A stretch of 64,000 nucleotides of DNA, from NCBI GenBank assembly GCA_947476215.1, contig CANJQI010000004.1, positions 490 through 64,489 of the forward strand, in the 5' to 3' direction. The DNA is from Betaproteobacteria bacterium. GTDB lineage: Bacteria; Pseudomonadota; Gammaproteobacteria; Burkholderiales; SG8-41. The notes below the pieces were generated by a model that was given only the letters and a program-made list of their open reading frames with translations, searched no databases and was not told where the DNA came from. Both the position numbers and the translations under genes were made by a program. Positions 22,558 to 51,520 of this stretch are shown piece after piece (the first letter of the stretch is position 1; the number at the start of each line of letters is the position of its first letter).

Positions 22558-24288
22558 TCAGGACGATGTCTTGGCAGCGCTGGATTTGGCAAGCAGGGAA
22601 TTCCAGTCCCGGGGCAGCCGAATTTTTGCGCTGGTGGCGTAACCCTGCTTAAAATTCTGCCGATAGATGCAGCAACGATTGCGCGTCGGATCACCTGAAA
22701 CAACTACCAACCATTTGGTCTCGGGCAACAGCAAAGGTACCTCGCGATTAGGGTCGTCCGACGTACACCACGCCTTGGGCATTTCGCCTTTCGCGACCAG
22801 TTCGCACAGTGTCGTGCCGGGCGGATGCGAGGTTCCCGCGGTCATATTCCATTCAAAGTAGTGCGCCGGAACTGTCGCGTTTTTCATGATGTAATCGACG
22901 ACATCCTGCTTCGAGTACCCAGCCCGGGCCACCAGCGACGCAATAACCGGTGTCATCAGAAGCACATGCGTCTCTATGTAACCGCGCGATGCCTGATACG
23001 GGTCTATCATGCGTTTGGCCCAGTCCACGATGTAATCCAGATGGCGTTCCGCGTTTTCGCCGGCCGTTGAAAACGGGTCACTCACGGCGCGCACCGAGGT
23101 AATGGTTACCGCATTGTCATCGGGTGCGAAACCGCGCATGACGTGCAGCGGCTGCCAGCCCATGTCGTTACAGGCTTTTTCGTTCTCCGCGACCACGGCT
23201 CTGAACATCTGGCCGAAGGTCGCCATATCGGTCGTGCCGGGCAGGAACTTCGGCACGTTCCTGCAAAACAACCGGTAAAAGCGGCCTATGCTGGTGTTGG
23301 CCTGATTGCCCGGACGCTGCGCGGCCACTTCGCAATTGAACTCCAGCTGTTTTGCAATGGGGCCATTCAATATGATCATGCCTTCCCATCCGGGCGTGCT
23401 GCCGCCATGCTTGGCGCCGAAATCGGGCGTGGCCATGACATCGACGATGGCGAGCAATATCGGCATGTATTCCGGACGACAACCGGCCATGACGCCGTTG
23501 ACCGCGACCTTCCATACCGTGGCCTCGGCCTGACTGGGATGCAATACGCCTATGACTTCATCGGGAGAGCGGTCGGTATATTTGAGAAACGCTTCTATGC
23601 TTTCCAGGGTCGGCGGCACGACAGGCAGACCGTCGGACCAACCCTGGCGCTGGAAGTGTTCGTTGACTTCATTGAAAGATCCCTTAAATACAATGTCGCG
23701 GTCCTGCGGTTGAGCCACGGGCGCCGGCGCGCCCTTTACCGGTTCGAGTTGGGTCAGCCCCTTGACGATCTGATCGATCAGCACTTCTTCGATATTCCGT
23801 GTGATCGTTTCGTCCTTGTGCGTGGAAATGACGCCCGGATACTCTGCAACCGGAAGATTGGGATACCCGGAATCCTTGCCTATGGCTTTAACTGTGCCCG
23901 GAAAGCCCTTGATGGCGATGGTAACGCTGGGTACCCCACAATTTTCCGCAACGATGCTGGCCCGCGAACTCGCGGACGTGCAACTTCCTCAACCACCATT
24001 GCCGGAAATAACCGCATCGACCTGATATTCCTTGAGTTTGCCGGGTAGCGCCTTGATGACATCCGACTCCACCGGACCATACGTGTCGCCGAATTTTTCA
24101 TGGGGGACGAATTTGATATCTGGATACCGCTTCAGCAATGCCTTTTCAACAACAGCGAATGTCAGTTCGCTGCCGAACTTGTGATTCGACAACTCGCCTA
24201 TGGTCATGCCATTCAGCGATTGCAGGCGGGCCGTAACGGTTCTTGCCTTCTGGGTCAGTCTGCCCAGCGGATACACGACCTCGTACAT
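22558..24288 (-). CDS. candidate selenoprotein: UGSC-motif domain (Sec at the UGA 23991..23989) continuous with a ~400-aa conserved domain of unknown function (WSDGLPVVPPT motif)
   Basis: ORF 23989..24288 (GAGGA RBS) ends ..AVISGNGG-TGA. The same frame continues GSCTSASSRASIVAENCGVPSVTIAIKGFPG...NIEEV with no stop into ORF 22558..23784, giving 576 codons in total. A hairpin lies 11 nt after the UGA. Confidence 0.7.
23960..23977 (-). promoter_or_regulatory. SECIS-like hairpin downstream of the UGSC UGA
   Basis: mRNA reads UGA-GGAAGUUGCAC-GUCCGCG-AGUU-CGCGGGC. This is a 7-bp stem (one G.U) with a 4-nt loop containing GU, starting 11 nt after the UGA. Confidence 0.55.
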
Positions 24289-25867: not shown

Positions 25868-25868
25868 G

Positions 25869-28974: not shown

Positions 28975-29052
28975 ATCCGGTCAAAGGAATCTGAAGATCA
29001 GGTTACATTGTGCCGCAATTCTCCAGATCCGCAACCGGCGATGCAGGGCGCG

Positions 29053-29259: not shown

Positions 29260-29480
29260 GTCTATTCCTCAATTCGTCAGGTCGGTCGGAGGGGCGTGCG
29301 AACACGCGGGACGTGAGCCGGTCGTTCGCACAAAAAACGTATGGAATCGTGGGCGGGCTCAGCCAGAATTAGCCTTAATAATAACACACTTAAGTCACTT
29401 TTCCCGTCCGCCGGACAAACACGCGGAGCGCCCGGCGGAAACGCGCGCCCAAGTCGCCACGAAGCTCAATACCGGGAAGC

Positions 29481-29506
29481 AAAACGCCCGCGATTGCGGG
29501 CGTTTT
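29481..29506. terminator. bidirectional rho-independent terminator (11-bp perfect stem, GATT loop, A/T runs on both sides)
   Basis: AAAACGCCCGC-GATT-GCGGGCGTTTT lies 31 nt downstream of the cupin-rubredoxin stop and upstream of rpoZ. Confidence 0.7.
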
Positions 29507-29536
29507 GGCGATTTCGCAAATCGATGTGCGCGGAAA

Positions 29537-30478
29537 CTACACCTCAACCATCTGAAAATCGCTTTTGCTCGCGGCACAATCCGGACAGCTCCAGGTTTCC
29601 GGCACATCCGCCCACCGCGTGCCGGCGGGAATACCCTCCCCAGGCATGCCCTCGGCCTCGTCGTAGGCAAACGCACACAACTCGCACTGCCACTTCTTGA
29701 ACCCTGCCGCCTTCGACGGCGCTTTGGCGTCGACTTCGCGCGGTGCGACGCTGGGGAAATTCATGATGATGGCTTCCAGCCCCTGGGCACCGGCTTGCAG
29801 GTCGAATGCCTTTTCATCCGGCTTGATGAACACCACGGTAGGGGCCGGACGCTCCTTGCCTTCATGTATGAGGCTGCCTTTGACGACAACCACGTATTGA
29901 CCATCACCGCGTGAAGGATCGGGAGCATTGGTCCTCGTATTCGGCCCCATGGTGATGGTGGACGTGAACAGCCCCTGGTCATCTTTGATCTCGGCTACGT
30001 CCAGCGTGCTGACGCCCGAACCCTGCGAGGGAAAATTCACCTTGGCGGTGACCTGCCACGGCCTTCGCCCGGGTATCTGTTTCAACTTGTCGAGCGCGGC
30101 GGGAAAGCGTTGCGCGCCCGGATCAAAGCGGCTGCGCATGACGATGAACGCCCAACCCGTGTCCTTGTCGGATTGCAGCGGACCGTATGGCGTATACGCG
30201 CGCGAAAAATGCACGCAGTAGGGAGACACGTCGTGCCGCCCGAAGGTGCCCTTGCCTTCCATGATGACCTGGAACTGATCGACGATGTGAAAGTGCGCCG
30301 CGGAGTAGCGCGCTTCGCCGGCCGGATAGCGATTGAGCGCCGCAGTCGGTTCGTCGGGCATCTTCGCGTTGGCACGGAAAAACGTGGTGTTCAGCGCTCC
30401 GGGACTGCCGGGTACCAGCTTGGACGGCTGATTTACCTTGTCCGGACTGATTTCATTCATGGCTACAACTAATGACAT
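29537..30478 (-). CDS. cupin-domain protein fused to a C-terminal rubredoxin
   Basis: 313 aa. A cupin-like [18 protein letters not shown] motif is present. The last ~50 aa, [46 protein letters not shown], form a canonical rubredoxin (CxxC...CxxC). Confidence 0.75.
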
Positions 30479-30553
30479 AAATCCTCCATAAGAATTTAGC
30501 GTTTTGGGGTGAATACCCGAATGACGATCTGCTATCTTACTCCGCGTCCGAAT

Positions 30554-31939
30554 TCAGCGCGCCCCGACTTCCGTCGCCGCCAGTAACGTTTCCAAATTTT
30601 CGGATTTTTCCAGATTCCATAATGCATCCAACAACTTACGTGCCTGTGCCGCGGGCAGCCGCTCGCCCACCTGCTGCAAAAATTTTGCCTCCAGTTCCTG
30701 ATCCGACATGGGGTTGGCGGGGTGCCCCTTGGGATTAATCTGGTGGGCGGCAACCACTTTTCCGGACTTCAGCGTGGCTTCGATCCGGCAGTGATGCGTG
30801 TGCGAACGGGCCGCGGTGTAAACCGGATCTTCCTTGACGCTGATTTTTTTCATCAGCGCCAGTATGGTCGGATCGCGGAAGCGTCGCGGCGTCATCGTCT
30901 CTTCGGTAATTTCGCCGTCAACCAGAGCCGCGCCTAGCAAATAGGGCCCGCTGTGGTCGGCCGTCTCGCGGGTCTTGGGATCCCATCGCGCGGGGCTGAA
31001 AATGTCGTTGTAGGCAAGATGCGAATCCGCATAAACAACGATGGACTCGACATCGTCGAGCTTGAGTTTCTGGCGCAATTCGAATGCGGTGAAAACCGGC
31101 AGCTGTATCGAATACACCACTGGCAGGTACTTGAAATAGACGCCCTCGATCTTGTAAGGGACACCACCGTTGCCACCCAGATCACCGAGCTTGAACGGCG
31201 TATCAAGCTGTTTCATGAACCCCGCCGTCCCCTCGAATGGCTGCGCCGGTCCGGTGATACCCGCCTGCGCCAGTTGCGCCGCCATCAGTCCTGCGCGGCT
31301 GCCGTTGGGACCCGCCAGTCCTTTCCACACACAGAGCTCGCCTTTGCGGGTTTCTCTAAGGCAAATGTTAGCCACCAGCGCCAGACCCAGTGCGCTGTGC
31401 AGTTGCTCCTTGGTCAATCCCAATACCTTGCCGGCGCCCAGCGAGGTGGCCGCCGAATGCATGACCGGGTAATCCCATCCCTTGGATCCCAGCGTAATGT
31501 GGTCCACGAGCTGGGCGCACACCTCGTACGCGATGACAGTACCCAGTATCATTGTCCTGCCGTTACCACGCATCGATTCGGTGGCCGCCAGCAGACTGCC
31601 GATGTTGTCGCTCGGATGCGGACCTGCCTGCAGACTGTGGCTGCCGAAGTAATCATCGCTGAAGTCCAGGTAACGGATCATCGTGCCGTTGACGAATCCG
31701 GCCTGCTCGGGTGAGCTCCGGATGCGGGTGCCGATGAGCGTGGCGGGATTGGTGGCGGTTATCTTCTGCGCCAGCGCTCGCACTGCCTTAACCGGTTCCG
31801 CGTCGAACGCGCCCAAAGCGCATCCTATGGAATCGACGATACTGCGCTTGGCACCATGTATCGCCTGCGCGGTCAGATCGTCATAAGACAGACCCGCTGC
31901 GTAGCTGACAAATTTATCCGCGGTTGCATCCATAGTCAT
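30554..31939 (-). CDS. MmgE/PrpD family protein
   Basis: 461 aa with PrpD-fold N- and C-domain motifs (IVDSIGCALGA, FSDDYFGSH). Confidence 0.88.
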   Translation of the reverse strand: MTMDATADKFVSYAAGLSYDDLTAQAIHGAKRSIVDSIGCALGAFDAEPVKAVRALAQKITATNPATLIGTRIRSSPEQAGFVNGTMIRYLDFSDDYFGSHSLQAGPHPSDNIGSLLAATESMRGNGRTMILGTVIAYEVCAQLVDHITLGSKGWDYPVMHSAATSLGAGKVLGLTKEQLHSALGLALVANICLRETRKGELCVWKGLAGPNGSRAGLMAAQLAQAGITGPAQPFEGTAGFMKQLDTPFKLGDLGGNGGVPYKIEGVYFKYLPVVYSIQLPVFTAFELRQKLKLDDVESIVVYADSHLAYNDIFSPARWDPKTRETADHSGPYLLGAALVDGEITEETMTPRRFRDPTILALMKKISVKEDPVYTAARSHTHHCRIEATLKSGKVVAAHQINPKGHPANPMSDQELEAKFLQQVGERLPAAQARKLLDALWNLEKSENLETLLAATEVGAR

Positions 31940-31991
31940 CCGTGCTTTCTGATTTTGTCGACAGGGGATACCGCGCCGGCACTTTGGTGTC

Positions 31992-33386
31992 TCAGGCGAG
32001 CGTGAATAGCGGCGGGAGATCCGCCATGCTCCCCATGTCTTCGAGGTTTAACAGTCGATCCAGTATGAAGTTTACTCTCTTTGCTCCCAACGCATCTTCG
32101 CTCAGCGCGCGAAACTTGTCCGTCACCAGCGACAAACTGCTGTGCGCCGACTGATCGCCCTTGCCATAGCTCACGTCAGCCGTCTGGCGCTCGCCGGAAG
32201 TCGCCATGATAGTCACGCGCGCGCACTGTCGTGCCGGCACCTGCTGGTATGCGCGTGTGTATTCTTCGTTTTCGATGACTTCGATTTTCTGCATCAACGC
32301 ACGCAGATCGGGGTCCCACAAACGCGCGTTGCCGTACGAGCGCGGGGTCAACGTTCCGTCCACCAGCGCCGCCGCGACGATGAACGGGATGCTGTGATCG
32401 GCCGTCTCGGGCGAATCGGGATTCCAGTCGTGTGCTCCCGATCCGGAAGCCGCTTTCGCCTTCATGTGAACTTCGACCGTAATACGATCGATACCATTTG
32501 CACTCTTGACCGGCGCGAGTTTCTCCGCCGCGAGAGCCGTCGCGATAATCAGCCCGACCGCCGGCCGCGTCTTGATGGTCGACTCGGCAATCTTGAATGA
32601 AACCGCGCCGCCGCCGAAAGTGTCCAGGGTAAACTGCTCGCGGGCCACATGCGCACACCATCCCGCCTTGCCCGTGAAAGGCAGATGCGGACCTTCCATG
32701 CCCGCCTGCGCCAGTTGCGCCGCAAACACGCCGGCGCGCCCTGATTGCCCCGAGGCCGCCATTTTCCACGTCGTAAGGTGGCCTATTCGAGTCTGTTTCA
32801 GCGCATTGTTCGGCACTGCCGCCATGGCAATACAGTGCGCGAATTCGCTTTCCGACAGGCCCAGCATTCTGCCCGCGCCTACCGCAGCGCCCACGCAGCC
32901 GAAAGTCGTGTAATCGAAACCGTCGTTGTGAAAAATATCCGCGAGCCGTATGAAGACTTCATAGGCAAGCACGACGGCCGTGATGAAATCGCGACCGCTC
33001 GCACGTGCCGGTTCGCCGACGGCAAGCACGGGCGCAATAACGTCGCTCGGGTGTCCGTGCGCGCTTCCCGGCCAATGGTAGGTGTCGGTGAAATTGACAT
33101 ATCTGGCAGTCGCGGCGTTGACGAAAGCGGCGACGTCGGGCGCTGTCTTCATGCGTGTACCGAGCACGCTCGCCCCGTGCGCAGTGGGGCAACTTGCAGC
33201 CAGCTTGCGCGCAAGCTGGCAAGGTTCGCCAAAGAAACCTGCCACCAGCGCACCGAGAGTATCAATAATGCGCAGCTTGGCAGCTTGCACGGACTCCGGC
33301 GTGAGCGCCTCATAACGCAGGCTGTACGCGTAATTCGCGAGCCGCTGTTGTACGGGATCTATCGCTCTGTCGACTTTGGATTCCAC
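31992..33386 (-). CDS. MmgE/PrpD family protein
   Basis: 464 aa (IIDTLGALVAG, FTDTYHWPGSAHGHPSD), in tandem with the previous paralogue. Confidence 0.88.
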   Translation of the reverse strand: MESKVDRAIDPVQQRLANYAYSLRYEALTPESVQAAKLRIIDTLGALVAGFFGEPCQLARKLAASCPTAHGASVLGTRMKTAPDVAAFVNAATARYVNFTDTYHWPGSAHGHPSDVIAPVLAVGEPARASGRDFITAVVLAYEVFIRLADIFHNDGFDYTTFGCVGAAVGAGRMLGLSESEFAHCIAMAAVPNNALKQTRIGHLTTWKMAASGQSGRAGVFAAQLAQAGMEGPHLPFTGKAGWCAHVAREQFTLDTFGGGAVSFKIAESTIKTRPAVGLIIATALAAEKLAPVKSANGIDRITVEVHMKAKAASGSGAHDWNPDSPETADHSIPFIVAAALVDGTLTPRSYGNARLWDPDLRALMQKIEVIENEEYTRAYQQVPARQCARVTIMATSGERQTADVSYGKGDQSAHSSLSLVTDKFRALSEDALGAKRVNFILDRLLNLEDMGSMADLPPLFTLA

Positions 33387-33610
33387 CGGCTAGTTCACAA
33401 TAGGTCTTTGCAAATGGCCTTGCGTGCCGGCACGTTCGCAGTTTGAAGATTCTTCCCAGGACGAAGTTTATCACGCTCACCAGACTCGACTTTGCCGCGC
33501 TGGCGTCCACGGAGTTTCATCATGATAGACTTTGAACCGGAAATCCCTTGGATAACGCGACGCTCATATCGCGTTGTGTTCACCGCCACCACCCCAAGAA
33601 AAGGCCACGC

Positions 33611-34579
33611 ATGACTGTAATGCTCGGTTACGAAGCTCTCAAGGGCGTGCTCGGCATGCGCGATGCAATCGATTTGCTGGAGCAATCCGCGCGCCATGAG
33701 GCTGCCGGAAAAACCGTTATTTCGCCGCGCACGAATCTGGATTTTGAACACGGTTCGATGCGCATGCTGTTTGCGATCGACTACGAGTCGGGGTATTTCG
33801 CCTCCAAAGCATATAACCGCATACAGGGGGCGGGCGTGCGCTACGTGGTATCCCTCTACCGCCTCAAGGACGGCGAACTGCTCGCGTTGCTGGACGGGCA
33901 GCAAATTACGGATCTGCGCACCGGCGCGGCGAGCGGGGTGATCGCCCGCCAGGTGCGAATTAGCGGCCCCATAACCGTAGGCGTGCTGGGTTCGGGCAAT
34001 CAGGCACGGGCGCAACTCGAAAGCCTGTCGGCGGCGTACGCCGTGCAGTCCGCCGTGGTGTACAGCCCCAATCGCGAACATCGCACCAAATATGCTTTCG
34101 ACATGAGCGCAAAACTGGGATACCCCGTAGCCGCCGTTGATACCGCGGAAAGCGCCGCGCGAGGATGCAGCGTAGTCGCCACCGCGACCCGCTCGCGCAG
34201 CAGCGAACCCGTATTACGGGCCGAATGGCTGGATCACTGCCGGCTGCTGTGTGCGGTCGGCAATACGCGCAAACAGTTTTCGGAAGCAGACGTCCTTTGT
34301 TTCCGCGACGCCGGACTTGTCGTCGTCGACTCCATGCATGCGTTCAAGGATACCGGGGAGCTGATACAGGCCGCCAGGGACGACGGATTGCCGCCAGCAC
34401 GGTGTGCGGATCTCGCGCAAGTCGTGACGGGCGCCATCACCGTCCCGACATCCGGACGCGTCGCCTTCAAATCGGTGGGCACGGCACTGCAAGATCTGGC
34501 GCTTGCGGTTCGCTACTACGAACTGCTGGGCTCGCGCAAAGGACTGCCCAACGCGCCGGATATGGGAACCTTGCGTTAA
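33611..34579 (+). CDS. ornithine cyclodeaminase / mu-crystallin family protein
   Basis: Start at the ATG at 33611 (MTVMLGYEALKGVLGMRDAIDLLEQ). The Rossmann motif VGVLGSGNQARAQ and TDLRTGAASGV are present. Confidence 0.85.
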   Translation: MTVMLGYEALKGVLGMRDAIDLLEQSARHEAAGKTVISPRTNLDFEHGSMRMLFAIDYESGYFASKAYNRIQGAGVRYVVSLYRLKDGELLALLDGQQITDLRTGAASGVIARQVRISGPITVGVLGSGNQARAQLESLSAAYAVQSAVVYSPNREHRTKYAFDMSAKLGYPVAAVDTAESAARGCSVVATATRSRSSEPVLRAEWLDHCRLLCAVGNTRKQFSEADVLCFRDAGLVVVDSMHAFKDTGELIQAARDDGLPPARCADLAQVVTGAITVPTSGRVAFKSVGTALQDLALAVRYYELLGSRKGLPNAPDMGTLR

Positions 34580-34623
34580 CGCGGTTGTTCACGGTGCCCG
34601 CGCAAGATCCAATTCGATCTCCT

Positions 34624-34736
34624 GACGCAGAGGACACGGAGGACGCAGTGGTCCGCAGAGGAAAAGCGCTTGCCATACGAAACGCTTTTTTCACTTTGGG
34701 CGTATCTTACCCGGCGCACCTCTGCGTCCTCTGCGT
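34624..34736. repeat. hairpin element with arms made of tandem 9-mers (GACGCAGAG-like x4 / CCTCTGCGT x2)
   Basis: The left arm (34624..34661) and right arm (34717..34736) are inverted relative to each other. The element lies between convergent OCD and PrpD-like genes and abuts the PrpD-like stop codon. Confidence 0.6.
34661..34692. terminator. rho-independent terminator-like hairpin inside the 9-mer-armed element
   Basis: GAAAAGCG-CTTGCCATACGAAA-CGCTTTTTTC is an 8-bp stem with a T-run on the + strand and an A-run upstream, so it is usable from both convergent genes. Confidence 0.5.
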
Positions 34737-36119
34737 TTAGAGGTTGCGCGTCTGATCCAGCGCAAACGGTTCCAGTATCTCGTTGACAGTCTTCATTTCG
34801 TCCAGATGCCACAACCGGTCTAACGCATTGCGGGCACGGTCCTGTCCCATGACCGGTTCGGTCAGCCTCAGGAATTTCGCTTCTATATCCTTGTCGCTCA
34901 TCGGATTTTTGGGGTGCCCCTTGGCGTAGCGGATTTCGCGCAGGTGCTGGTGCCCGGATTTTGTGGTGACGGTAATGCGGAACGGATAGGCCTCCGGCCA
35001 GTCGCGATTGCAGGCGTCGGTGGCGCGCACCTGGATTTTCTGCATCAGCGCGTGTATGCGGGGTTCGCGGATGCGCTCTTCCTCGAAATCTTCCAGCCAC
35101 AGTTTTCCTCTGGCGAGCCCCACAGCTGCCACGTAAGGAATGCTGTGATCGGCCGTTTCGCGGTTTTGCGGACTCCACTTGTCCGGGGTATCGGCGGATA
35201 TCTTGATCGCGTGATCGTAGGTCTCGATTTCGACCTTGTCGATATCATCGATATTGCCGTGCAAAGCCGCGTGCAACTCCAGTATCGGCGTGAAAGCGCA
35301 CTGCGCCTCGTAATCGCACGGGTAATACTTGAATTTGTCGGTTTCGATCGTGTACGGCACGCCCGCCCCACCAAACGCGGCCAGTTTCAGCGTGGTGCCC
35401 AGTTGTTGCTTGAAGCCCCGCGTGCCGTCGAATGCCTCCAACGGCCCGGTCATGCCACGGCGCGCCAACAGCGCCGCGAACGTGCCGTTGCGCGCCGAAT
35501 TCGGCGCGGTGCACCCTTTCCACATCGAGAGATGGCCAACCCGCGTCTGCCCCATCGCGGCATAGGGCACGGCGGCCAATGCCAGCGCATACGCCGTTTG
35601 ATCCTTGTTCAACCCCAGCGCTTTAGCGGCGCCGGCGGCGGCGGACACGCCGACGAATATGGCGCTGTCCCAACCCCTGGCCCTGAGATCCTTGCACGCG
35701 TCGCCGAATCGGCCCTGAACCTCATACGCAATAACGATACCGGCGATCGCGGTTTGCACCGTGGCTCCTGCATATTCCGCCGCAGCCAGCACCGCCGGAA
35801 TATTGTCACTCGGATGTCCGGCATTGCCCGACATGCTGGTATCGTTGAAGTCGAGATAACGCACCATCACGCCATTGGCGAATGCAGCCAGTTCCGGCGT
35901 GGTCTTATGCCGTGTACCCAGCACAGTGGAACCCGGTGTAGACACCGCCTCCAGCGCATGTGCGCGTGCCATGCGCGGAGGCTCCATGTCATAGCAACCC
36001 ATGGCGCAGCCCAGCGTATCTATCATGCGGCGCTTGACCTGATGTACCAGGCTGTCCGACAAGTCCGCGTAATTCAGTGCGTAGCCGTAGTTACTCAGAA
36101 AATTCAGTACGCCATCCAT
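34737..36119 (-). CDS. MmgE/PrpD family protein
   Basis: Start at the ATG at 36119 (MDGVLNFLSNYGYALNY..) after GGGGA. PrpD motifs are present (MIDTLGCAMG, FNDTSMSGNAGHPSD). Confidence 0.88.
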   Translation of the reverse strand: MDGVLNFLSNYGYALNYADLSDSLVHQVKRRMIDTLGCAMGCYDMEPPRMARAHALEAVSTPGSTVLGTRHKTTPELAAFANGVMVRYLDFNDTSMSGNAGHPSDNIPAVLAAAEYAGATVQTAIAGIVIAYEVQGRFGDACKDLRARGWDSAIFVGVSAAAGAAKALGLNKDQTAYALALAAVPYAAMGQTRVGHLSMWKGCTAPNSARNGTFAALLARRGMTGPLEAFDGTRGFKQQLGTTLKLAAFGGAGVPYTIETDKFKYYPCDYEAQCAFTPILELHAALHGNIDDIDKVEIETYDHAIKISADTPDKWSPQNRETADHSIPYVAAVGLARGKLWLEDFEEERIREPRIHALMQKIQVRATDACNRDWPEAYPFRITVTTKSGHQHLREIRYAKGHPKNPMSDKDIEAKFLRLTEPVMGQDRARNALDRLWHLDEMKTVNEILEPFALDQTRNL

Positions 36120-36310
36120 GGATTTTTCCCCGCTCGACAACTCGCACGCTCCTAAATCGGACAAACCGGCGTGGACTCTAGAGAAGATGGGCTGCGTTTG
36201 TCAATTATTTGAAAAGGGTTCGGGCTCGTGACGGGAACTGCATCACTGCGCATGGCCACGAAGTTGCATGGCCTCGTTGAATCATCGTAACATGCAGGCC
36301 AACTTTTACA

Positions 36311-37429
36311 ATGAGTTCCGCGATGGCCAAAAACGAAGTTGTTCTGCTCGGTGTCGGTGATATGGGACCGATCCATGAACCGATCCGACCCTATAGTGAA
36401 CTGGTGCGGCCCAAGCTTGCTGGCGCCGATATACGCTTTGCACAGGCTGAGCGTTTGTACTCGGACCGCGGTGCGCTGCAGGTCACGGGCATCAAACGCG
36501 GCCGCCTCAAACCACACATGATCTCGGTGTTCAGCGACTGTGGATTTGACGTGGTTTCGCTTGCCGGCAATCACGCCATGGACTGGGGCGAAGATGCTCT
36601 GATGGATACCATGAGCCTGCTTCAGGAACGGGGAATACAGACGGTAGGCGCCGGCCGCAACCTCGAGGAGGCGACACGGCCGGTGTTCATCGAACGCAAC
36701 GGGGTGCGGGTTGCGATACTCGCCTACTGCTCCGTGGTCAACGAGAACTACCACGCCGGCCCGGACCGGCCAGGCATCGCGCCGCTGCGCGTGCGCACCT
36801 TCTACGAGCCCATGGAATTTCAGCCCGGCATGCCGCCCAAGGTATTAACCTTCCTCTATGAAGAGGACCTTGCCGCCATGGTCGCGAATATCGCCGCGAC
36901 CAAGAAGGTTGCCGATGTGGTGGTCCTGTCGCTGCACTGGGGCATACATTTTCTGCCCAAACTGATAGCCGACTATCAGCCGGTTGCGGCCAAGGCGGCT
37001 TTTGCCGCGGGCGCGGATTTGATAATCGGCCATCACGCCCACGTTCCCAAGGCGATCGGCGTGCACGACGGCAAAGTGTGTTTTTACAGTCTCGGCAATT
37101 TCATTATTTCTACGCATGAACGCAATGCCGAACAGCTCGCGGATTTCAACCGCCGCACGCATGGCAGCGTAGTGTTGGATCCGGATTATCCGCGGCTCGG
37201 TTTCGGCGTCGATTCCAAGCGCACACTGGTCGCCAAGGCCGTGCTCTCCAAAAAGGGCGTGGGCAAGGTTTCCTTTCTGCCCACTTTTATCGACAAACAG
37301 CTGCGGCCCGACATACTTCAGCACGGCGATCCACGCTTTGATGAAGCCGTGAAATATATGGAATGGGCATCGGACGCGTTCGATCATAAATTTACGGTGG
37401 CCGGTGACGAAGTCGTCGTCAGCGCATAG
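36311..37429 (+). CDS. CapA family (PGA_cap metallophosphoesterase-like) protein
   Basis: 372 aa with GVGDMG, LAGNHAMDWG, HWGIH and GHHAHVPK motifs. Confidence 0.8.
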   Translation: MSSAMAKNEVVLLGVGDMGPIHEPIRPYSELVRPKLAGADIRFAQAERLYSDRGALQVTGIKRGRLKPHMISVFSDCGFDVVSLAGNHAMDWGEDALMDTMSLLQERGIQTVGAGRNLEEATRPVFIERNGVRVAILAYCSVVNENYHAGPDRPGIAPLRVRTFYEPMEFQPGMPPKVLTFLYEEDLAAMVANIAATKKVADVVVLSLHWGIHFLPKLIADYQPVAAKAAFAAGADLIIGHHAHVPKAIGVHDGKVCFYSLGNFIISTHERNAEQLADFNRRTHGSVVLDPDYPRLGFGVDSKRTLVAKAVLSKKGVGKVSFLPTFIDKQLRPDILQHGDPRFDEAVKYMEWASDAFDHKFTVAGDEVVVSA

Positions 37430-37495
37430 TGCAAGGCGTGATGCCGGTAGGCAACTTGCGGATTCCCCCTTACAACAGCTTAACTGGAGATCTAT

Positions 37496-38452
37496 ATGCG
37501 GCATCCTTTAATGCGGGCTTTGCCCGCCGTTCTGGCGTTAAGCGCACAAGCTATTTGCGCTCAACCCTATCCCAGCAAACCTATACGCGTCGTCACCGCT
37601 GAGTCCGGCGGCGCCAGCGATCTGCTGGCGCGTTTGATAGCCAACGGGATTTCCGGCCCTCTGGGGCAACCTGTGGTGATAGATAATCGCATGGGCGGAA
37701 TCCTGCTTGCTGAAGTCATTGCCAAAGCGCCGCCGGATGGTTACAACCTGCTTATCTACAGTGGCACCATCTGGGTTGGTCCGCTGTTGCGCGAAAAAAT
37801 GCCGTACGATCCCATCCAGGATTTTTCCCCCGTCACTCTGGTCAGCAGAGCGCCGAGCATAGTCGTCATTCATCCATCGGTCGGGGCAAAAACGATCAAG
37901 GATCTCATCGCTATCGCCAAAGCCAAACCGGGGGTACTCAACTATGGCTCGACGTCGACCGGCGGAGCGTCCCATCTCGCCACGGAACTGTTCAAGGCGA
38001 TGGCGAGTGTCGACATCCTGCGCATCCCCTATAAGAGCAGCACCATCGAAACCACCGACCTGCTGTCCGGTCAAACGCATCTGTCATTTGGCACGGTAAA
38101 CGGCATGATGCCGCACGTCAAACTGGGAAAACTGAAAGCACTGGCGGTCACCAGCGCACAGCCGTCGCCGCTGGCGCCTGGTTTACCTACCGTCGCGGCA
38201 ACCGGCGTGCCCGGCTATGAAGCGGTGGTGTTAGCAGCCATGATGGCGCCGGCAAAAATGCCCGACGCCATCCTCAACAGACTCAGCCAGGAAACGGTAC
38301 GCTTTCTGAAATCCGCGGAAGCTCGGGACAGGCTGTTTGCATCGGGAGTCGATGCCGTCGGCAGCACTCCCGAGGAACTTACCGCCACGATCAAGGCCGA
38401 AGTCGCGCGCTGGGGCAAGGTCATCAAGGATGCCGGCATACGCGCGAACTAA
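37496..38452 (+). CDS. Bug family (TctC-like) substrate-binding protein
   Basis: 318 aa with a signal peptide, then YPSKPIRVVTAESGGASDL. Confidence 0.88.
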   Translation: MRHPLMRALPAVLALSAQAICAQPYPSKPIRVVTAESGGASDLLARLIANGISGPLGQPVVIDNRMGGILLAEVIAKAPPDGYNLLIYSGTIWVGPLLREKMPYDPIQDFSPVTLVSRAPSIVVIHPSVGAKTIKDLIAIAKAKPGVLNYGSTSTGGASHLATELFKAMASVDILRIPYKSSTIETTDLLSGQTHLSFGTVNGMMPHVKLGKLKALAVTSAQPSPLAPGLPTVAATGVPGYEAVVLAAMMAPAKMPDAILNRLSQETVRFLKSAEARDRLFASGVDAVGSTPEELTATIKAEVARWGKVIKDAGIRAN

Positions 38453-42820: not shown

Positions 42821-42847
42821 CCCTGGAAACAGCCAGTGCGGCGGATG

Positions 42848-43066
42848 TTACTGCCGCAGCGCGGCAATGACTTCCGATGCCTCGGGAAATCGAGCGTCGC
42901 GAGTTTTCGAATAGACTACCGTGTCATCGCGCGTGACCTCAAAAATCCCGTTGCTGCCCTTGCGTATCTCGGGGTTTACACCCAACGCACTGGAAATCTC
43001 GGCCGCCAACCTGGTGGCCTGGAGCAGATAGTTTCACTGCACGCAATAGGTGATGGTGATTTTCAT
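42848..43066 (-). CDS. SelW/SelT/SelH (Rdx) family selenoprotein candidate, CxxU motif (Sec at the UGA 43036..43034)
   Basis: Not in the ORF track. The minus strand reads MKITITYCVQ-UGA-NYLLQATRLAAEISSALGVNPEIRKGSNGIFEVTRDDTVVYSKTRDARFPEASEVIAALRQ* (72 codons). The architecture matches SelW (YC..U near the N-terminus, G.FEV, hydrophobic C-terminal helix). A hairpin lies 14 nt after the UGA. Confidence 0.75.
43001..43019 (-). promoter_or_regulatory. SECIS-like hairpin downstream of the SelW-like UGA
   Basis: mRNA reads UGA-AACUAUCUGCUCCA-GGCCACCA-GGU-UGGCGGCC. The stem has 7 pairs plus one A/C mismatch, and the apical loop is GGU (or AGGUU). Confidence 0.55.
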
Positions 43067-43107
43067 GGTGCATCCAAAAAACGAAATGAGTAATTATGGC
43101 GCATTAG

Positions 43108-45302: not shown

Positions 45303-46265
45303 TCATTCGACTTTGATACCCGTATCCTTGATCAATTTTCTCACCTTGGCGATCTCGGATTTCACGGTGTTGCCCAACTCTTCGGGCGTGCTGCCCACGG
45401 CCTCTACACCCCGGCTCAACAAGTTCTCTTTCGCTTCCGGCGTTCTCAGGAAACGCGCGATCTCCTGGCTCAGGCGATTGATGATCGCGGCGGGCGTCTT
45501 TGCCGGCGCAAACACCGCCGTCATCGATCCGTATTCATATCCCGGAACGCCGGAAGCCGCCACCGTCGGCAGACTGGGAAACAGCGCCGACGGCTGGGCG
45601 GTGGATACGGCCACGGCACGCAACCTGCCTGATTTGATGTGCGGGGAAAGCTCCACAGCGGTCCCAAATGTCATCTGCATCTGCCCGCTCAGAAGATCGG
45701 CGATTTCCTGCGCCCCGTTGGTGTAGGCCACGCGCGCGACGTTGATACCCGCCATCGACTTGAAGAGTTCGAATGCGATATGCCCGGAGCCGCCGTTGGA
45801 ACCTGTAGAGCCGTTGAGTGCGCCCGGCTTGGCCTTGGCCAATGCGATCAACTCCTTGACCGTCTTGACCGGCAATGACGGATGCACGGTCAGAACATTG
45901 GGCGACCGGTTGGTGATCGTAATCGGAGAAAAATCATTGACCGGATCGTAGGGCGGTTTCGCCTGAAACAAGGGCCCGATCCAGAACGTTCCGGCCGCGA
46001 GTATCAAGGTATAGCCATCCGGCGCTGCCTGAGACACCAGCTGGCCGGCGATGATGCCGCTCCGATTCTCGATGATTACCTGCTGCCCCAGAGGGCCGGA
46101 AATCCCCTGGCCGATAAAGCGTGCAAAGTAATCGCTGGCGCCGCCGATGGGACCATCCATGATACGAATCGGTTTGGTGGGGTACGTCTGTGCGACCGCA
46201 ATATTCGCAGCCAACATCACGAAGCTTACCGCAATCGCCTTACTAACCGAGCACTTAGGTGACAT
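45303..46265 (-). CDS. Bug family (TctC-like) substrate-binding protein
   Basis: Start at the ATG at 46265 (MSPKCSVSKAIAVSFVMLAANIAVAQ-TYPTKPIRI). Confidence 0.88.
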   Translation of the reverse strand: MSPKCSVSKAIAVSFVMLAANIAVAQTYPTKPIRIMDGPIGGASDYFARFIGQGISGPLGQQVIIENRSGIIAGQLVSQAAPDGYTLILAAGTFWIGPLFQAKPPYDPVNDFSPITITNRSPNVLTVHPSLPVKTVKELIALAKAKPGALNGSTGSNGGSGHIAFELFKSMAGINVARVAYTNGAQEIADLLSGQMQMTFGTAVELSPHIKSGRLRAVAVSTAQPSALFPSLPTVAASGVPGYEYGSMTAVFAPAKTPAAIINRLSQEIARFLRTPEAKENLLSRGVEAVGSTPEELGNTVKSEIAKVRKLIKDTGIKVE

Positions 46266-46363
46266 ATGAATTCCTTTGTGAAGAAGGTACTGGTTCTTCT
46301 TTGACGTGGTTTGCCAAGCAATCGCGCTGTGGGAAGACGCTATTGTCCGGGACACGCCGTGTG

Positions 46364-46399
46364 TTGACAACTGCTATACACCACCATAAGATGTGTATA
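46364..46399 (+). promoter_or_regulatory. candidate sigma70 promoter and operator of the tacAT-like module
   Basis: TTGACA (46364..46369), a 17-nt spacer, then TAAGAT (46387..46392). The inverted repeat TATACAC (46375..46381) / GTGTATA (46393..46399) brackets the -10. Confidence 0.4.
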
Positions 46400-46710: not shown

Positions 46711-47199
46711 TTGCAACTCGGTCCGCCGGAGCCCTTAGTGGCTGCACATCGACGGGATGACTTCGAGTGCGGCGAAGTCGTGCTCGATGAATGGCTCAAG
46801 CGCAGAGCATTGTCCAACCAGGCCAGCGGTGCAAGCCGCACCTTCGTCACCACCGATGAGGGCGGCTGCGTCCATGGTTACTACACCATGGCGCCCGGCG
46901 CCGTTTCGCACCAACTCGCAACGAGCGGCGTGCGACGCAACATGCCTGATCCGGTTCCCGTCATGGTGCTCGCCCGGCTCGCGGTCGATCACAGGGCGCA
47001 GGGATTGCACTTGGGCGCCGCCTTGCTGCAGGACGCGGTCAATCGCGCCGTGGCCGTATCGCAGAACGCGGGCGTCAGAGCCCTGCTCGTGCATGCTCTT
47101 CACGAAAAGGCCAGGCAGTTCTACGAGCACTACGGGTTTCAGCCCTCGCCGACGCACCCGATGACGTTCATGCTGCGCTTGAGCAGCGTGAAGGCGTAG
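46711..47199 (+). CDS. GNAT-family acetyltransferase toxin (TacT-like)
   Basis: 162 aa. The DFECGEVVLDEWLKRRA motif is typical of TacT partners of DUF1778, and a GNAT core is present (RLAVDHRAQGLHLGAALL). Confidence 0.8.
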   Translation: MQLGPPEPLVAAHRRDDFECGEVVLDEWLKRRALSNQASGASRTFVTTDEGGCVHGYYTMAPGAVSHQLATSGVRRNMPDPVPVMVLARLAVDHRAQGLHLGAALLQDAVNRAVAVSQNAGVRALLVHALHEKARQFYEHYGFQPSPTHPMTFMLRLSSVKA

Positions 47200-47229
47200 C
47201 GGAATCACGCCTGCGATTCTCGCCACCCC

Positions 47230-47306
47230 TTGCTACCGTTGCTACTCCTGCTACCGATCAACGTCCGCGCCGGGCAACGGTAGCAAGAGTAGCAACAGCA
47301 GCAGCA
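47230..47306. repeat. hairpin element with arms of tandem GCTAC-containing 9-mers
   Basis: The left arm TTGCTACCGTTGCTACTCCTGCTACCG and right arm CGGTAGCAAGAGTAGCAACAGCAGCAGCA are inverted, with 18 of 19 inner positions pairing. The loop is 21 nt and begins ATCAACG. Confidence 0.6.
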
Positions 47307-47361
47307 CCCTCGGGCGCGAGAATGGCTTGACTTTATATGGTGTTTCCGCCATATTCTTGAA

Positions 47362-47742
47362 ATGTCTGGTGCCGCCATCAAACCCGTCTCATGGATCGGT
47401 TCGAGCTACAGGGACTTCCGGGAATTTCCGGATCCCGTGCAGGACGCGATGGGCTACGCGTTGTATCAGGCGCAGATCGGCCTGAAGCATGGCAGCGCCA
47501 AACCGCTCAAGGGCTTCGGTGGGGCGGGCGTGCTGGAGATTGTTGCCGACCATGTGGGCGACACATTCCGGGCGGTGTACACGGTCAAGTTCGTGACGGC
47601 GATCTATGTCCTGCACGCCTTCCAGAAGAAGTCGAAGTCGGGAATCAAGACCACGACCGAAGACATGGAATTGATCCAGCGCCGGCTCAAGGCAGCCGAT
47701 GCAGATTACAAGGCGCAGCTTGAAAAAGGAAAAGCATCATGA
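47362..47742 (+). CDS. RelE/HigB-superfamily toxin, phage Gp49-like (DUF891)
   Basis: 126 aa with SWIGSSYRDFREFPDPVQ, GAGVLEIV and YVLHAFQKKSKSGIKT motifs. It overlaps the next gene by 4 nt. Confidence 0.75.
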   Translation: MSGAAIKPVSWIGSSYRDFREFPDPVQDAMGYALYQAQIGLKHGSAKPLKGFGGAGVLEIVADHVGDTFRAVYTVKFVTAIYVLHAFQKKSKSGIKTTTEDMELIQRRLKAADADYKAQLEKGKAS

Positions 47743-48335: not shown

Positions 48336-48770
48336 TCAGGCAGCGACGCGTTCGGTCTGCCGGCGAACGCGCGGTGCCGGTTTGTCGCCGAAGCCGATAT
48401 CCAGGGTCAGATTGACGCAACGGGCGACGGCCACGGGTTTCACGGCACGCCGTCCGCGGCCCTGCGATCCCTCTTCCAAGCGCACCAATCCGTAATTCGC
48501 CATGGTGCGCAAGGTGCGGGACAAATTGCTTGCCTTGCGTCCTGTCATCTGCTCCAGGTCGGCAATGGATCCGGGCTGCTTGTCGTAGATGAGTCGCAAC
48601 AAATCGCGGTTCTCGTCGGACAGCACGGTCGCAAAAGACTTGATCGCCGTAAACCAGATCCTGGGCTCCGTCGATTTGCGCTTGTAGGTGCCTTTGGCGA
48701 TGGCCAAGGTGTAATCGCGCACGCGCTCCAACGGCATGATGCCGACGCGGATGGCTTTGACGATGCTCAT
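48336..48770 (-). CDS. winged-helix (MarR-like, COG4190-type) putative transcriptional regulator
   Basis: 144 aa with WFTAIKSFATVLSDENRDLLRLI and IADLEQMTGRKASNLSRTLRTMANYGLVRLE. Assigned by recollection of the family pattern. Confidence 0.6.
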   Translation of the reverse strand: MSIVKAIRVGIMPLERVRDYTLAIAKGTYKRKSTEPRIWFTAIKSFATVLSDENRDLLRLIYDKQPGSIADLEQMTGRKASNLSRTLRTMANYGLVRLEEGSQGRGRRAVKPVAVARCVNLTLDIGFGDKPAPRVRRQTERVAA

Positions 48771-50803: not shown

Positions 50804-51520
50804 TTATTCCTTCTTGCCGGACTCTTTCTTGTCGCCGCCGCCTTTTTTGTCGTCTTTTCCGGCAGCTTTGCCGGCGCCAGCAGCTTCAGTTGCCTCTGCC
50901 TGGCCCGTGATCTTCGTAACCGGCGCGGCGGCGGCTTCATCAACCGCAACCACCTTCGGCACATGCACGGTAACAACCCCGGGGTTTTCCTTCTTCAGAC
51001 GTGGGATGGGTCCGACGCCCTTAGGCAGGGGCAGATCGTTGACGTGCAGGGTATGACCGAGTTCAAGCTTGTCGAGATTGACTTCGACATACTCGGGCAG
51101 ATCATCCGGCAGGCACGAGATCTCGAGATCATTCAGCACGTGGTTGACCACGCCGCCGCCCTGCTTGACGCCGGGACAAATCTCGGCGTTGATAAAGTGC
51201 AGCGGCACTTTCATGTGGATTTTCTTGTTCTTGTCTATCCGCTGAAAGTCGACATGCAGCACTAACTGCCGGAACGGGTGCATCTGAACATCGCGCAGCA
51301 ACACCTGTTGCTTGTTGCCCTCGTACGTCATATCCAGGATGGAGGCGTGAAATGCTTCCATCTTGAGGTGATGGTACAAGGCCTGGTGATCGAGTTCGAT
51401 CGGTTGCGCGGGCAAATTGGCGCCATAAACGATACCCGGCACCTTGCCGCCGCCACGCAGACGGCGGCTCGCACCCGTTCCCTGCAGTGTGCGCGGAAAT
51501 GCATTAAATTCAATTTTCAT
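50804..51520 (-). CDS. rplY: 50S ribosomal protein L25 / general stress protein Ctc
   Basis: Start at the ATG at 51520 after GGAGA: [33 protein letters not shown]. Lys/Ala-rich tail. Confidence 0.9.

What the first reader, a model, noticed from the sequence alone, without database searches (positions are those of the whole stretch)
42848..43066. Unannotated 72-codon SelW/Rdx-like gene with a CxxU motif and SECIS-like hairpin
On the minus strand, between the S1/P1 nuclease gene and hemW, an ATG at 43066 opens MKITITYCVQ. Then comes TGA (43036..43034), and the frame continues NYLLQATRLAAEISSALGVNPEIRKGSNGIFEVTRDDTVVYSKTRDARFPEASEVIAALRQ*. The YC-x-x-U position near the N-terminus, the G.FEV strand and the C-terminal helix reproduce the layout of SelW/SelT/SelH (Rdx) thioredoxin-like proteins. 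Compare human SelW: VVYCGAUGY...GFFEV...LVAAI. Fourteen nt after the UGA the mRNA can fold GGCCACCA-GGU-UGGCGGCC (43019..43001). The ORF track instead lists an 85-aa ORF on the opposite strand. Together with the UGSC gene, this makes two independent UGA-at-redox-motif cases in one window, which strongly suggests the organism decodes selenocysteine.
Basis: partly seen in the sequence, partly recalled or inferred. Interest (0 to 1): 0.8.

Follow-up and report, generated by a model that had tools for sequence, protein, structure and literature searches.

The report
Truncated SelW-like selenoprotein gene
This is a real but ordinary small redox-protein gene of the well-known bacterial SelW-like (Rdx) family, in which a UGA codon most likely encodes selenocysteine with the help of a conserved RNA hairpin, so gene callers cut it short.

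Summary
On the minus strand, 43066..42848 reads MKITITYCVQ-UGA-NYLLQ...ALRQ, 72 codons plus the stop.

- **Family:** with U replaced by C, the protein passes Pfam Rdx (66 bits, cut-off 22.6) and NCBIfam TIGR02174 CXXU_selWTH (52 bits, cut-off 34).
- **Conserved UGA:** all 42 related genomic loci from several phyla, and four near-identical lake-metagenome contigs, keep TGA at this position. About 117 database "full-length" homologues show W or G there, which is TGA read under the wrong genetic code.
- **Hairpin:** the hairpin 14 nt after the UGA is not significant as a single sequence. Across homologues it is strongly conserved: 88% of cells paired against 25-46% for shifted controls, an invariant loop G, compensatory changes, and rare codons forced at synonymous sites.
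- **Independent RNA test:** a covariance model built without the window finds it as the single strong hit in the window (31.6 bits).
- **Rival readings fail:** TGA is the commonest normal stop here, and the antisense 85-aa ORF is a shadow ORF.
- **Not tested:** selA/B/C/D. None lies in the window, and the source contig is only about 65 kb.

SelW-like CxxU proteins are among the most abundant known prokaryotic selenoproteins. This is a new member of a known kind and of low interest.

The parts
42848..43066 (-). Full SelW-like (Rdx family) selenoprotein gene: 72 codons including Sec11, plus the TAA stop at 42850-42848.
   Evidence: Translation. Pfam PF10262 scores 66.3 bits and TIGR02174 52.2 bits, both above their cut-offs. 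GC3 is 0.68 in this frame, like the long ORFs at 0.71.
43043..43045 (-). Cys8 codon (TGC), the first residue of the CxxU redox motif.
   Evidence: Sequence. Cys8 is invariant in alignments A2 and A3.
43034..43036 (-). In-frame UGA, the predicted selenocysteine codon (residue 11).
   Evidence: TGA sits at the same position in 42 of 42 related loci, in the four near-identical contigs and in L047. It aligns with the second Cys of CxxC in the solved homologues.
43001..43019 (-). Bacterial SECIS-type hairpin: an 8-pair stem with one A.C mismatch and the apical loop GGU at 43011-43009. It starts 14 nt after the UGA.
   Evidence: Fold. Across homologues 88.4% of cells are paired against 25-46% for slid controls, and the covariation score is 0.354 against 0.03-0.12. 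The first loop base G is invariant. Codon choice is constrained at synonymous sites. The leave-window-out covariance model hits 42998-43022 with 31.6 bits, E about 1e-5.
43073..43075 (-). Weak Shine-Dalgarno-like GGA, 6 nt before the ATG. This is an inference.
   Evidence: Sequence. Many homologues have GGAG or AGGAG at the same distance from the same ATG.
42848..43009 (-). The 53-codon TTG-initiated ORF that gene callers report in place of the full gene. It lacks strand beta1 and the CxxU motif.
   Evidence: ORF list. It is called as an Rdx fragment on four JGI contigs. Most library representatives are similar 51-60-aa fragments.
42836..43093 (+). Antisense 85-aa ORF, a shadow of the real gene and not a gene itself.
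   Evidence: No Pfam hit. GC3 is 0.51 with GC1 0.66, the mirror of the true frame, and the equivalent frame is broken by stops in 27 of 42 homologues.
22558..24288 (-). Second selenoprotein-family gene in the window: a UGSC-domain protein with UGA at 23991-23989 (U100), followed by a GC-rich hairpin at about 23977-23960. It supports Sec decoding in this organism.
   Evidence: Pfam PF24696 UGSC scores 95.5 bits against a cut-off of 25. NCBIfam NF041046 scores 55 bits, below its equivalog cut-off of 125.

Best explanation
The locus is a genuine gene for a 72-residue SelW-like (Rdx-family) selenoprotein.

**Translation.** When the ribosome reaches UGA11, the hairpin 14 nt downstream, with its conserved apical-loop G, is bound by the elongation factor SelB carrying Sec-tRNA(Sec). 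Selenocysteine is then inserted instead of translation terminating. This step is inferred from the established bacterial Sec pathway.

**Protein.** The product is a minimal thioredoxin-like protein (beta1-alpha1-beta2-beta3-beta4-alpha2). Cys8 and Sec11 sit between beta1 and alpha1 and can cycle between a reduced thiol/selenol pair and a selenenylsulfide. The protein would therefore act as a small cytoplasmic thiol/selenol oxidoreductase. The family and fold are shown here. The redox chemistry and the substrate are inferred, and the substrate is unknown for the whole bacterial family.

**Expression and annotation.** The gene is probably co-transcribed with the upstream S1/P1 nuclease gene, because the gap is 41 nt and no promoter is predicted in it. 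Standard gene callers treat the UGA as a stop and report only the last 53 codons.
For: - **Family.** Pfam Rdx gives E = 2.9e-18 across the UGA, and TIGR02174 CXXU_selWTH is above its cut-off. Solved Rdx structures match over residues 2-69, with their CxxC aligned to CxxU. An AlphaFold model of a 58%-identical subfamily member has pLDDT 95.6 and TM 0.91-0.96 to 2FA8, 2OJL and 2OBK, with the motif between beta1 and alpha1.
- **UGA is ancestral.** TGA is present in 42 of 42 related loci from Desulfobulbales, Planctomycetota, Acidobacteriota, Myxococcota and others. It is also present in four near-identical contigs from different metagenome samples. Of the 120 best database hits, 116 match the CxxW motif and one has G at the site, and none has Cys. 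L047 confirms at the DNA level that such a W is TGA.
- **SECIS.** The hairpin is at a fixed register and 88.4% paired. It has 41 cells changed on both sides against 13.9 in shuffles, and all slid controls are much lower. The first loop base G is invariant.
- **Synonymous-site constraint.** Ser19 is AGY in 19 of 19 sequences, against 52 of 149 elsewhere (p = 1.6e-8). Arg19 is AGG in 16 of 19, although AGG is only 4.5% of Arg codons in the window (p = 1.6e-10). Leu20 ends in G in 41 of 43 (p = 3.6e-11), and both exceptions are compensated in the opposite arm of the stem.
- **Independent RNA test.** A covariance model built without the window finds 42998-43022 as the only strong hit in the window.
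- **Second case.** The UGSC gene has UGA at its family's redox position, followed by a hairpin.
- **Standard genetic code.** TGA ends 22 of 43 long ORFs in the window.
Against: - No selA, selB, selD or tRNA-Sec lies in the window, and the rest of the genome could not be examined. Sec decoding in this organism therefore rests on indirect evidence.
- The hairpin alone is not more stable than shuffled sequence. No Rfam family matched.
- The control with Cys-form homologues was inconclusive. Only three sequences were available, and one of them keeps 7 of 8 pairs in register.
- The sequences used for covariation are phylogenetically related, and GC3 bias could contribute to some of the apparent covariation.
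- The window's copy has Leu15 where nearly all Sec forms have Pro, and its Shine-Dalgarno sequence is weak.
- There is no transcript or protein evidence.
Confidence: 0.9

Rival explanations
1. The gene is a relic. The lineage inherited a SelW-like selenoprotein gene but no longer decodes Sec, so only a 10-residue peptide is made and the locus is a silent pseudogene.
For: No Sec machinery was found in the 64-kb window. The window's copy carries Leu at the nearly invariant Pro15. The Shine-Dalgarno sequence is weak.
Against: The frame after the UGA is intact and identical at the protein level on four other contigs from different samples, with only 2-3 nucleotide differences in about 400 nt. The hairpin is intact and scores 31.6 bits with the family model. 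A second UGA-containing gene, UGSC with 576 codons, is also intact. Leu occurs at the equivalent position in the functional CxxC relatives, as NWLLRA.
Confidence: 0.05
2. UGA is an ordinary stop here, and the real product is the 53-residue protein started at TTG 43009, as annotated on the JGI contigs.
For: Gene callers report it, and it still matches the C-terminal half of Pfam Rdx at 35 bits.
Against: That product would lack beta1 and the CxxC/CxxU motif that defines the family. The 10 codons before the UGA are the most conserved part of the protein (MKITITYC), and they are conserved with the UGA in every homologue. The N-terminal part adds about 31 bits to the HMM score. A TTG inside the SECIS stem is not a conserved start.
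Confidence: 0.03
3. UGA is reassigned to a standard amino acid (Trp under code 4 or Gly under code 25), as many database translations of homologues assume.
For: Of the 120 best database hits, 116 match the CxxW motif and one has G at the site.
Against: TGA terminates 22 of 43 long ORFs in this window, and the DNA is 59% G+C. The position aligns with a catalytic Cys in the CxxC homologues. The W and G calls sit mostly on contigs under 2 kb, where code choice is unreliable. A conserved hairpin follows the codon.
Confidence: 0.01
4. The real gene is the 85-aa ORF on the + strand (42836..43093), and the minus-strand reading is coincidental.
For: It is the longest uninterrupted ORF at the locus.
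Against: It has no Pfam match. Its codon-position G+C pattern is the mirror image of a true gene, with GC3 0.51 against 0.71 in long ORFs. The equivalent frame carries stops in 27 of 42 homologues.
Confidence: 0.01

Closest known systems
Bacterial SelW-like (SELENOW-like) selenoproteins: Pfam PF10262 Rdx, NCBIfam TIGR02174 CXXU_selWTH
   Same: The size is about 70-75 aa, and the CxxU motif sits directly after the N-terminal strand. A SECIS hairpin with a G in a small apical loop lies just downstream of the UGA. Sec forms predominate over Cys forms: 427 against 56 in GOS (PMC2398784), and very few Cys homologues in PMC1794560. Gene callers routinely mis-annotate these genes (PMC1088965).
   Different: Nothing essential differs. 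The window's copy has Leu15 instead of the usual Pro. It scores below the cut-off of the Campylobacter-type equivalog NF041051 (72.7 against 88). It comes from a lake-metagenome lineage whose taxonomy I could not establish.
Cys-containing bacterial Rdx proteins of solved structure: 2FA8 (Agrobacterium Atu0228), 2OJL (Bordetella), 2OKA and 2OBK (Pseudomonas), 3DEX, 2P0G
   Same: They have the same fold. The subfamily model superposes on them at TM 0.91-0.96 and rmsd 1.0-1.5 A. The motif position is the same, and the sequences align over residues 2-69.
   Different: They carry CxxC rather than CxxU, so they need no SECIS. They are about 100 aa long with a C-terminal extension, and are only about 25-35% identical.
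Mammalian selenoprotein W (2NPB) and MIEN1 (2LJK)
   Same: They belong to the Rdx family, have a thioredoxin-like fold and carry a CxxU or CxxC motif between beta1 and alpha1 (TMq 0.70 and 0.75).
   Different: Eukaryotic SelW uses a 3'-UTR SECIS of a different structure (PMC1088965). Sequence identity is about 14-30%, and partners such as 14-3-3 are eukaryote-specific (own knowledge).
Escherichia coli fdhF SECIS, the archetypal bacterial SECIS bound by SelB
   Same: It is a hairpin inside the coding region a short fixed distance after the UGA, and its apical loop carries a G that is needed for function (PMC1088965 for the general features; the fdhF details are own knowledge).
   Different: The stem sequence is different, and here the loop has only 3 nt (G-K-Y). 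SelB binding was not tested.

Membership tests
Rdx family (Pfam PF10262) / SelT-SelW-SelH (NCBIfam TIGR02174) | Score above the curated HMM cut-off over the whole domain | tested here: met
   PF10262 scores 66.3 bits against 22.6, covering residues 2-71 of 72. TIGR02174 scores 52.2 bits against 34.2. U was replaced by C for the test.
Rdx family (Pfam PF10262) / SelT-SelW-SelH (NCBIfam TIGR02174) | CxxC or CxxU redox motif at the end of beta1 and start of alpha1 | tested here: met
   C8-V-Q-U11. It aligns with CxxC of 2FA8, 2OKA and 2OBK. In the model of subfamily member P0004 the motif lies between E3-8 and H14-28.
Rdx family (Pfam PF10262) / SelT-SelW-SelH (NCBIfam TIGR02174) | Thioredoxin-like beta-alpha-beta-beta-beta-alpha fold | tested here: met
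   Tested on a proxy, because the window protein itself could not be submitted with its in-frame stop. P0004 is 58% identical. Its model has pLDDT 95.6 and TM 0.91-0.96 to the SelW-related crystal structures.
NCBIfam NF041051 SelTWH_Campy (equivalog) | Score above the equivalog cut-off of 88 bits | tested here: not met
   72.7 bits. It is not filed under this equivalog, only under the broader TIGR02174 subfamily.
Bacterial selenoprotein gene | In-frame UGA at a position occupied by Cys in homologues and conserved as UGA in orthologues | tested here: met
   TGA is present in 42 of 42 loci plus 5 further contigs. Cys forms are P0141, P0153, P0160, P0176 and the PDB relatives.
Bacterial selenoprotein gene | Coding sequence conserved on both sides of the UGA | tested here: met
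   MKITITYC before the UGA and NYLP.A..L after it are the most conserved blocks.
Bacterial selenoprotein gene | Sec machinery in the same genome (selA, selB, selC/tRNA-Sec, selD) | not testable with these tools
   None lies in the window: the only tRNA is tRNA-Gln, and Pfam finds no SelA, SelB or SelD among the ORFs. The longest contig found carrying a window-end gene is 65.5 kb. Taxonomy was not obtained.
Bacterial selenoprotein gene | Selenium actually incorporated (75Se labelling or mass spectrometry) | not testable with these tools
   This needs an experiment.
Bacterial SECIS element | Stem-loop immediately downstream of the UGA, inside the coding region, at a constrained distance | tested here: met
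   The stem starts 14 nt after the UGA and the loop 22 nt after it. The register is the same in all 43 sequences. The location criterion is from PMC1088965. The range of 16-37 nt from UGA to loop in the bSECISearch model is recalled from memory.
Bacterial SECIS element | Small apical loop containing a conserved G | tested here: met
   The loop is GGU, and its first base G (column 26) is invariant in 43 of 43 sequences. The criterion is from PMC1088965.
Bacterial SECIS element | Structure maintained by selection (covariation and synonymous-site constraint) | tested here: met
   Caveat: the sequences are related and overlap coding constraints, and the Cys-form control had only three sequences and was inconclusive.
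Bacterial SECIS element | Binding by SelB and SECIS-dependent read-through | not testable with these tools
   This needs an experiment.

The most novel reading that the evidence does not exclude
In this uncultured lake lineage, the SelW-like gene may be co-transcribed with the upstream DegP-like protease and S1/P1 nuclease genes and act as a dedicated redox partner for that module. This would give the first functional handle on bacterial SelW-like proteins, whose role is still uncharacterised. The evidence does not exclude it: the genes share a strand, the gap is 41 nt and no promoter is predicted. However, this gene order is not seen in the 42 related loci, and the SelW-like protein has no signal peptide, since beta1 starts at residue 2.
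Probability: 0.05. Interest if true: 0.45.

Novelty: new member of a known kind. Interest (0 to 1): 0.2.

Why it matters
The main value is for annotation.

- **The truncation is systematic.** The gene is cut to a 53-aa fragment on every contig where it was called. Relatives in public protein collections are either cut the same way or translated with Trp or Gly at the Sec site. Protein databases therefore misrepresent this abundant family throughout.
- **What the locus says about the organism.** Together with the UGSC gene, it indicates that this lake bacterium decodes selenocysteine and carries the two selenoprotein families that PMC2398784 reports as among the most abundant in ocean and other aquatic metagenomes.
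- **A reusable test.** The synonymous-codon analysis gives a clean illustration of an RNA structure constraining codon choice inside a coding region, and the same test can be applied to other candidate bacterial SECIS elements.

It does not open a new biological question.

Tried and rejected
- **Single-sequence folding of the hairpin** was not significant, so I turned to comparative tests.
- **Rfam**, at gathering and at permissive thresholds, found nothing relevant. The three weak hits (E of 4.8-6.7) are chance.
- **First word-indexed protein search** with the 72-aa sequence returned only the window's own fragment. A profile of 27 full-length translations was needed.
I used the 53-aa fragment and the proxy P0004 instead.
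- **Cys-form control for the hairpin**: only three DNA sequences could be fetched, with 7, 6 and 4 of 8 pairs in register. This is inconclusive. L048 may be a recent Sec-to-Cys convert with a fossil SECIS.
- **Conserved gene neighbourhood** exists only within Desulfobulbales and shares nothing with the window, so it gives no functional hint.
- **Search for sel genes:** Pfam on 20 window ORFs, on the neighbours of L043 and beyond the window end found none. The contig ends about 1.9 kb past the last gene.
- **Taxonomy via cluster members**: housekeeping proteins are singletons at 90% identity and carry no names.
- **Generic scan for other ORFs continuing across a TGA** was too noisy in 59% G+C DNA to be useful.
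- **Second-best covariance-model hit** at 51445-51472 lies in the N-terminus of the L25 gene with no UGA upstream, so it is chance.

Full report
**Observation.** The minus strand of 43066..42848 reads ATG AAA ATC ACC ATC ACC TAT TGC GTG CAG TGA AAC TAT ..., which translates to MKITITYCVQ-UGA-NYLLQATRLAAEISSALGVNPEIRKGSNGIFEVTRDDTVVYSKTRDARFPEASEVIAALRQ-TAA. The UGA is at 43036-43034. The hairpin GGCCACCA-GGU-UGGCGGCC is at 43019-43001, 14 nt after the UGA, and it forms in the minimum-free-energy fold with one A.C mismatch. The ORF list holds only an 85-aa ORF on the + strand (42836-43093) and a 53-aa TTG-initiated ORF on the minus strand (42848-43009). The neighbours are an S1-P1 nuclease gene upstream on the same strand and a convergent Radical_SAM/HemN_C gene.

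**Family.** With U written as C, the 72-residue protein matches Pfam Rdx (PF10262) over residues 2-71 with 66.3 bits (cut-off 22.6, E = 2.9e-18). The 53-residue downstream part alone gives 35.2 bits, so the segment that includes the pre-UGA decapeptide adds about 31 bits. NCBIfam TIGR02174 (CXXU_selWTH, "SelT/SelW/SelH family protein") scores 52.2 bits against a cut-off of 34.2. The narrower Campylobacter-type equivalog NF041051 scores 72.7, below its cut-off of 88.

Sequence search of the PDB finds the bacterial SelW-related proteins 2FA8, 2OKA, 2OBK, 2OJL, 3DEX and 2P0G, and human MIEN1 (2LJK). Their CxxC aligns to C8..U11. The window protein could not be submitted to the structure tool because of its in-frame stop, so I modelled the closest full-length database relative, P0004 (58% identical), with a 65-sequence alignment. 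The model has pLDDT 95.6 and the topology beta1(3-8)-alpha1(14-28)-beta2-beta3-beta4-alpha2, which places the motif between beta1 and alpha1. It superposes on the SelW-related crystal structures at TM 0.91-0.96, and on MIEN1 and mouse SelW at 0.75 and 0.70.

**The UGA is ancestral and conserved.** A scan of one genome per species found 42 related loci, at 32-58% identity. They come from Desulfobulbales, Planctomycetota, Acidobacteriota/Vicinamibacteria, Myxococcota, Nitrospirota, Chloroflexota and others. Every one has TGA at the same codon, with M-K-I-T-I-T-Y-C-x-x before it and N-Y-L-P-R/Q-A after it.

Four contigs from four JGI metagenome samples are nearly identical to the window (2-3 differences in about 400 nt). 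They keep the TGA and the same gene order.

A profile search of 5.8 billion proteins returned 723 relatives. Among the best 120, 116 match the CxxW motif and one has G at the site, while none has Cys. The DNA of one of them (L047) shows that the "W" is TGA, so these are gene calls made under genetic code 4 or 25. The exhaustive representative search with the 53-aa fragment returned mostly 51-60-aa fragments that start at the same place, which is the same truncation as here. It also returned a few true Cys (CxxC) forms: P0141, P0153, P0160 and P0176.

**The hairpin.** On this sequence alone it is not significant: z = -0.65, with 49 of 200 shuffles folding at least as well. No Rfam family matches. 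The comparative evidence is strong.

- **Pairing.** In an ungapped alignment of 43 sequences from the UGA onward, the 8-pair helix (columns 18-25 with 29-36) is 88.4% paired. Partners shifted by 1-3 columns give 25-46%. There are 41 cells with changes on both sides, against 13.9 +/- 4.2 in shuffles, and the covariation score is 0.354 against 0.03-0.12 for the shifted controls. RNAalifold independently predicts the six inner pairs.
- **Loop.** The first loop base is G in all 43 sequences.
- **Wobble covariation.** Column 21 is the wobble base of the invariant Ala17, and it pairs with column 33, another wobble base, as U-A in 19, C-G in 17, G-C in 2 and G-U in 2 of 41 distinct sequences.
- **Codon choice.** Ser19 is always AGY (19 of 19), against 52 of 149 Ser codons elsewhere in the same genes (Fisher p = 1.6e-8). 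Arg19 is AGG in 16 of 19, against 12 of 112 AGR elsewhere (p = 1.6e-10), and AGG is only 4.5% of Arg codons in the window's long ORFs. Leu20 ends in G in 41 of 43, against 98 of 226 elsewhere (p = 3.6e-11). The two exceptions, CUC and UUA, are matched by G and U at the pairing column.
- **Leave-window-out model.** A 25-nt covariance model built from the other 43 sequences finds 42998-43022 (-) at 31.6 bits (E about 1e-5) as the only strong hit in both strands of the window. The runner-up, at 17.3 bits, lies in the N-terminus of the L25 gene with no UGA nearby.

Three caveats apply. The sequences are related. The helix overlaps a coding region. The control with Cys-form genes had only three sequences and was inconclusive, with 7, 6 and 4 of 8 pairs in register.

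**Rival readings.**
- TGA is the most common ordinary stop in the window (22 of 43 ORFs of at least 200 aa), and the DNA is 59% G+C. This argues against UGA reassignment.
- The gene frame has GC3 of 0.68, like long ORFs at 0.71. The antisense 85-aa ORF has GC3 of 0.51, has no Pfam hit, and is interrupted by stops in 27 of 42 homologues.
- The 53-aa ORF would lack the defining motif.
- A recent nonsense mutation is excluded, because TGA is the conserved state.

**Second case in the window.** The minus-strand frame from 24288 to 22558 has 576 codons, with UGA at 23991-23989 in the context SGNGG-U-GSC. A GC-rich hairpin with loop AGUU follows 11 nt later. Pfam UGSC (PF24696) scores 95.5 bits against a cut-off of 25 over residues 3-179. 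NCBIfam NF041046 scores 55 bits, below its equivalog cut-off of 125. The roughly 390 C-terminal residues have no Pfam match. UGSC proteins, including a fusion to an uncharacterised "Unknown_1" domain, are described in PMC2398784.

**What could not be done.** The window holds no tRNA-Sec. No SelA, SelB or SelD family appears among the ORFs that I or the precomputed tables annotated. The longest contig found carrying a gene from the window's end is 65.5 kb and ends 1.9 kb beyond that gene. The many TctC/Bug receptors and the lolB-ispE-tRNA-Gln-prs-L25 gene order suggest a Burkholderiales-like betaproteobacterium, but that is my inference and not a tool result. Sec decoding in this organism is therefore supported only indirectly, by two intact UGA-containing genes of selenoprotein families, each with a hairpin in the right place.

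**Mechanism.**
- *Shown:* the gene belongs to the Rdx/SelW-like family, it carries a conserved UGA at the second redox position, and a selected hairpin sits downstream.
- *Inferred from the established bacterial pathway:* SelB with GTP and Sec-tRNA(Sec) binds the hairpin loop and delivers Sec at the UGA. The product is a cytoplasmic protein of about 8 kDa with a thioredoxin-like fold, whose Cys8/Sec11 pair cycles through a selenenylsulfide. Without selenium, translation would stop after 10 residues.
- *Unknown:* the substrate, as for all bacterial SelW-like proteins (PMC13188914 states that their functions remain largely uncharacterised).

Gene context is not conserved outside one order. No promoter-like site lies in the 41-nt gap after the nuclease gene, so co-transcription is plausible but unproven.

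[quoted passage not shown] They have very few Cys homologues (PMC1794560) and a dedicated NCBIfam model. Mis-annotation of such genes is described as almost universal (PMC1088965). This locus is an ordinary new member of that family. Interest is low (0.2). The useful by-products are a corrected gene model, a clear demonstration of codon-level selection for the SECIS, and the note that public protein sets translate this family's Sec codon as W or G.

Noticed in passing
window 22558-24288 (-): The UGSC-domain selenoprotein candidate (U100, UGA at 23991-23989, hairpin at about 23977-23960) is fused to a C-terminal region of roughly 390 residues with no Pfam or NCBIfam match. It may be the 'Unknown_1' fusion mentioned in PMC2398784. 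The ORF track would show it split, with a spurious + strand ORF (23143-24048) over it.
   Followed up: partly
window 43023 (codon 15 of the SelW-like gene): The window has CTC (Leu15), whereas all four near-identical metagenome contigs (L043-L046) have CCC (Pro). Pro is conserved in at least 90% of the Sec-form family. The change lies outside the hairpin stem, and the Cys-form PDB relatives have Leu at this position.
   Followed up: partly
database hits P0002-P0121; locus L047 597-821: Of the 120 best database hits, 116 match the CxxW motif and one has Gly at the Sec position, because gene callers chose genetic code 4 or 25 on short contigs. The remaining representatives are mostly 51-60-aa fragments. 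Public protein sets misrepresent this selenoprotein family throughout.
   Followed up: yes
L048 771-1013: A Cys-form (CxxC) homologue, P0153, still has 7 of 8 hairpin pairs in the SECIS register. It may be a fossil SECIS left by a recent Sec-to-Cys conversion.
   Followed up: no
window 19991-38452, 45303-46370 and 61670-63963: The window is unusually dense in TctC/Bug-family solute receptors and MmgE/PrpD-family paralogues. TctC genes lie at 19991-21127, 25869-26843 and 45303-46370, with more according to the L043 and L052 tables. MmgE/PrpD genes lie at 24356-25867 and 61670-63106, plus two more in L043. The UGSC gene sits among them.
   Followed up: partly
window 46711-47742 and 48336-48770: A small accessory-looking patch: a GNAT acetyltransferase (46711-47199), a Gp49-like (DUF891) toxin-type protein (47362-47742) and an HVO_A0114-family protein (48336-48770). 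It is possibly a toxin-antitoxin or mobile insertion between housekeeping genes.
   Followed up: no
window 5017-9723 (-): Three adjacent minus-strand ORFs of 641, 420 and 503 aa (7798-9723, 6525-7787 and 5017-6528) look by eye like the conserved prkA-yeaH-spoVR/ycgB stress operon. This was not tested with any family search.
   Followed up: no
window 51445-51472 (-): The second-best hit of the SECIS covariance model (17.3 bits, E = 0.058) is a GC-rich hairpin in the N-terminal coding region of the ribosomal protein L25 gene. No UGA lies upstream, so it is judged a chance match.
   Followed up: yes
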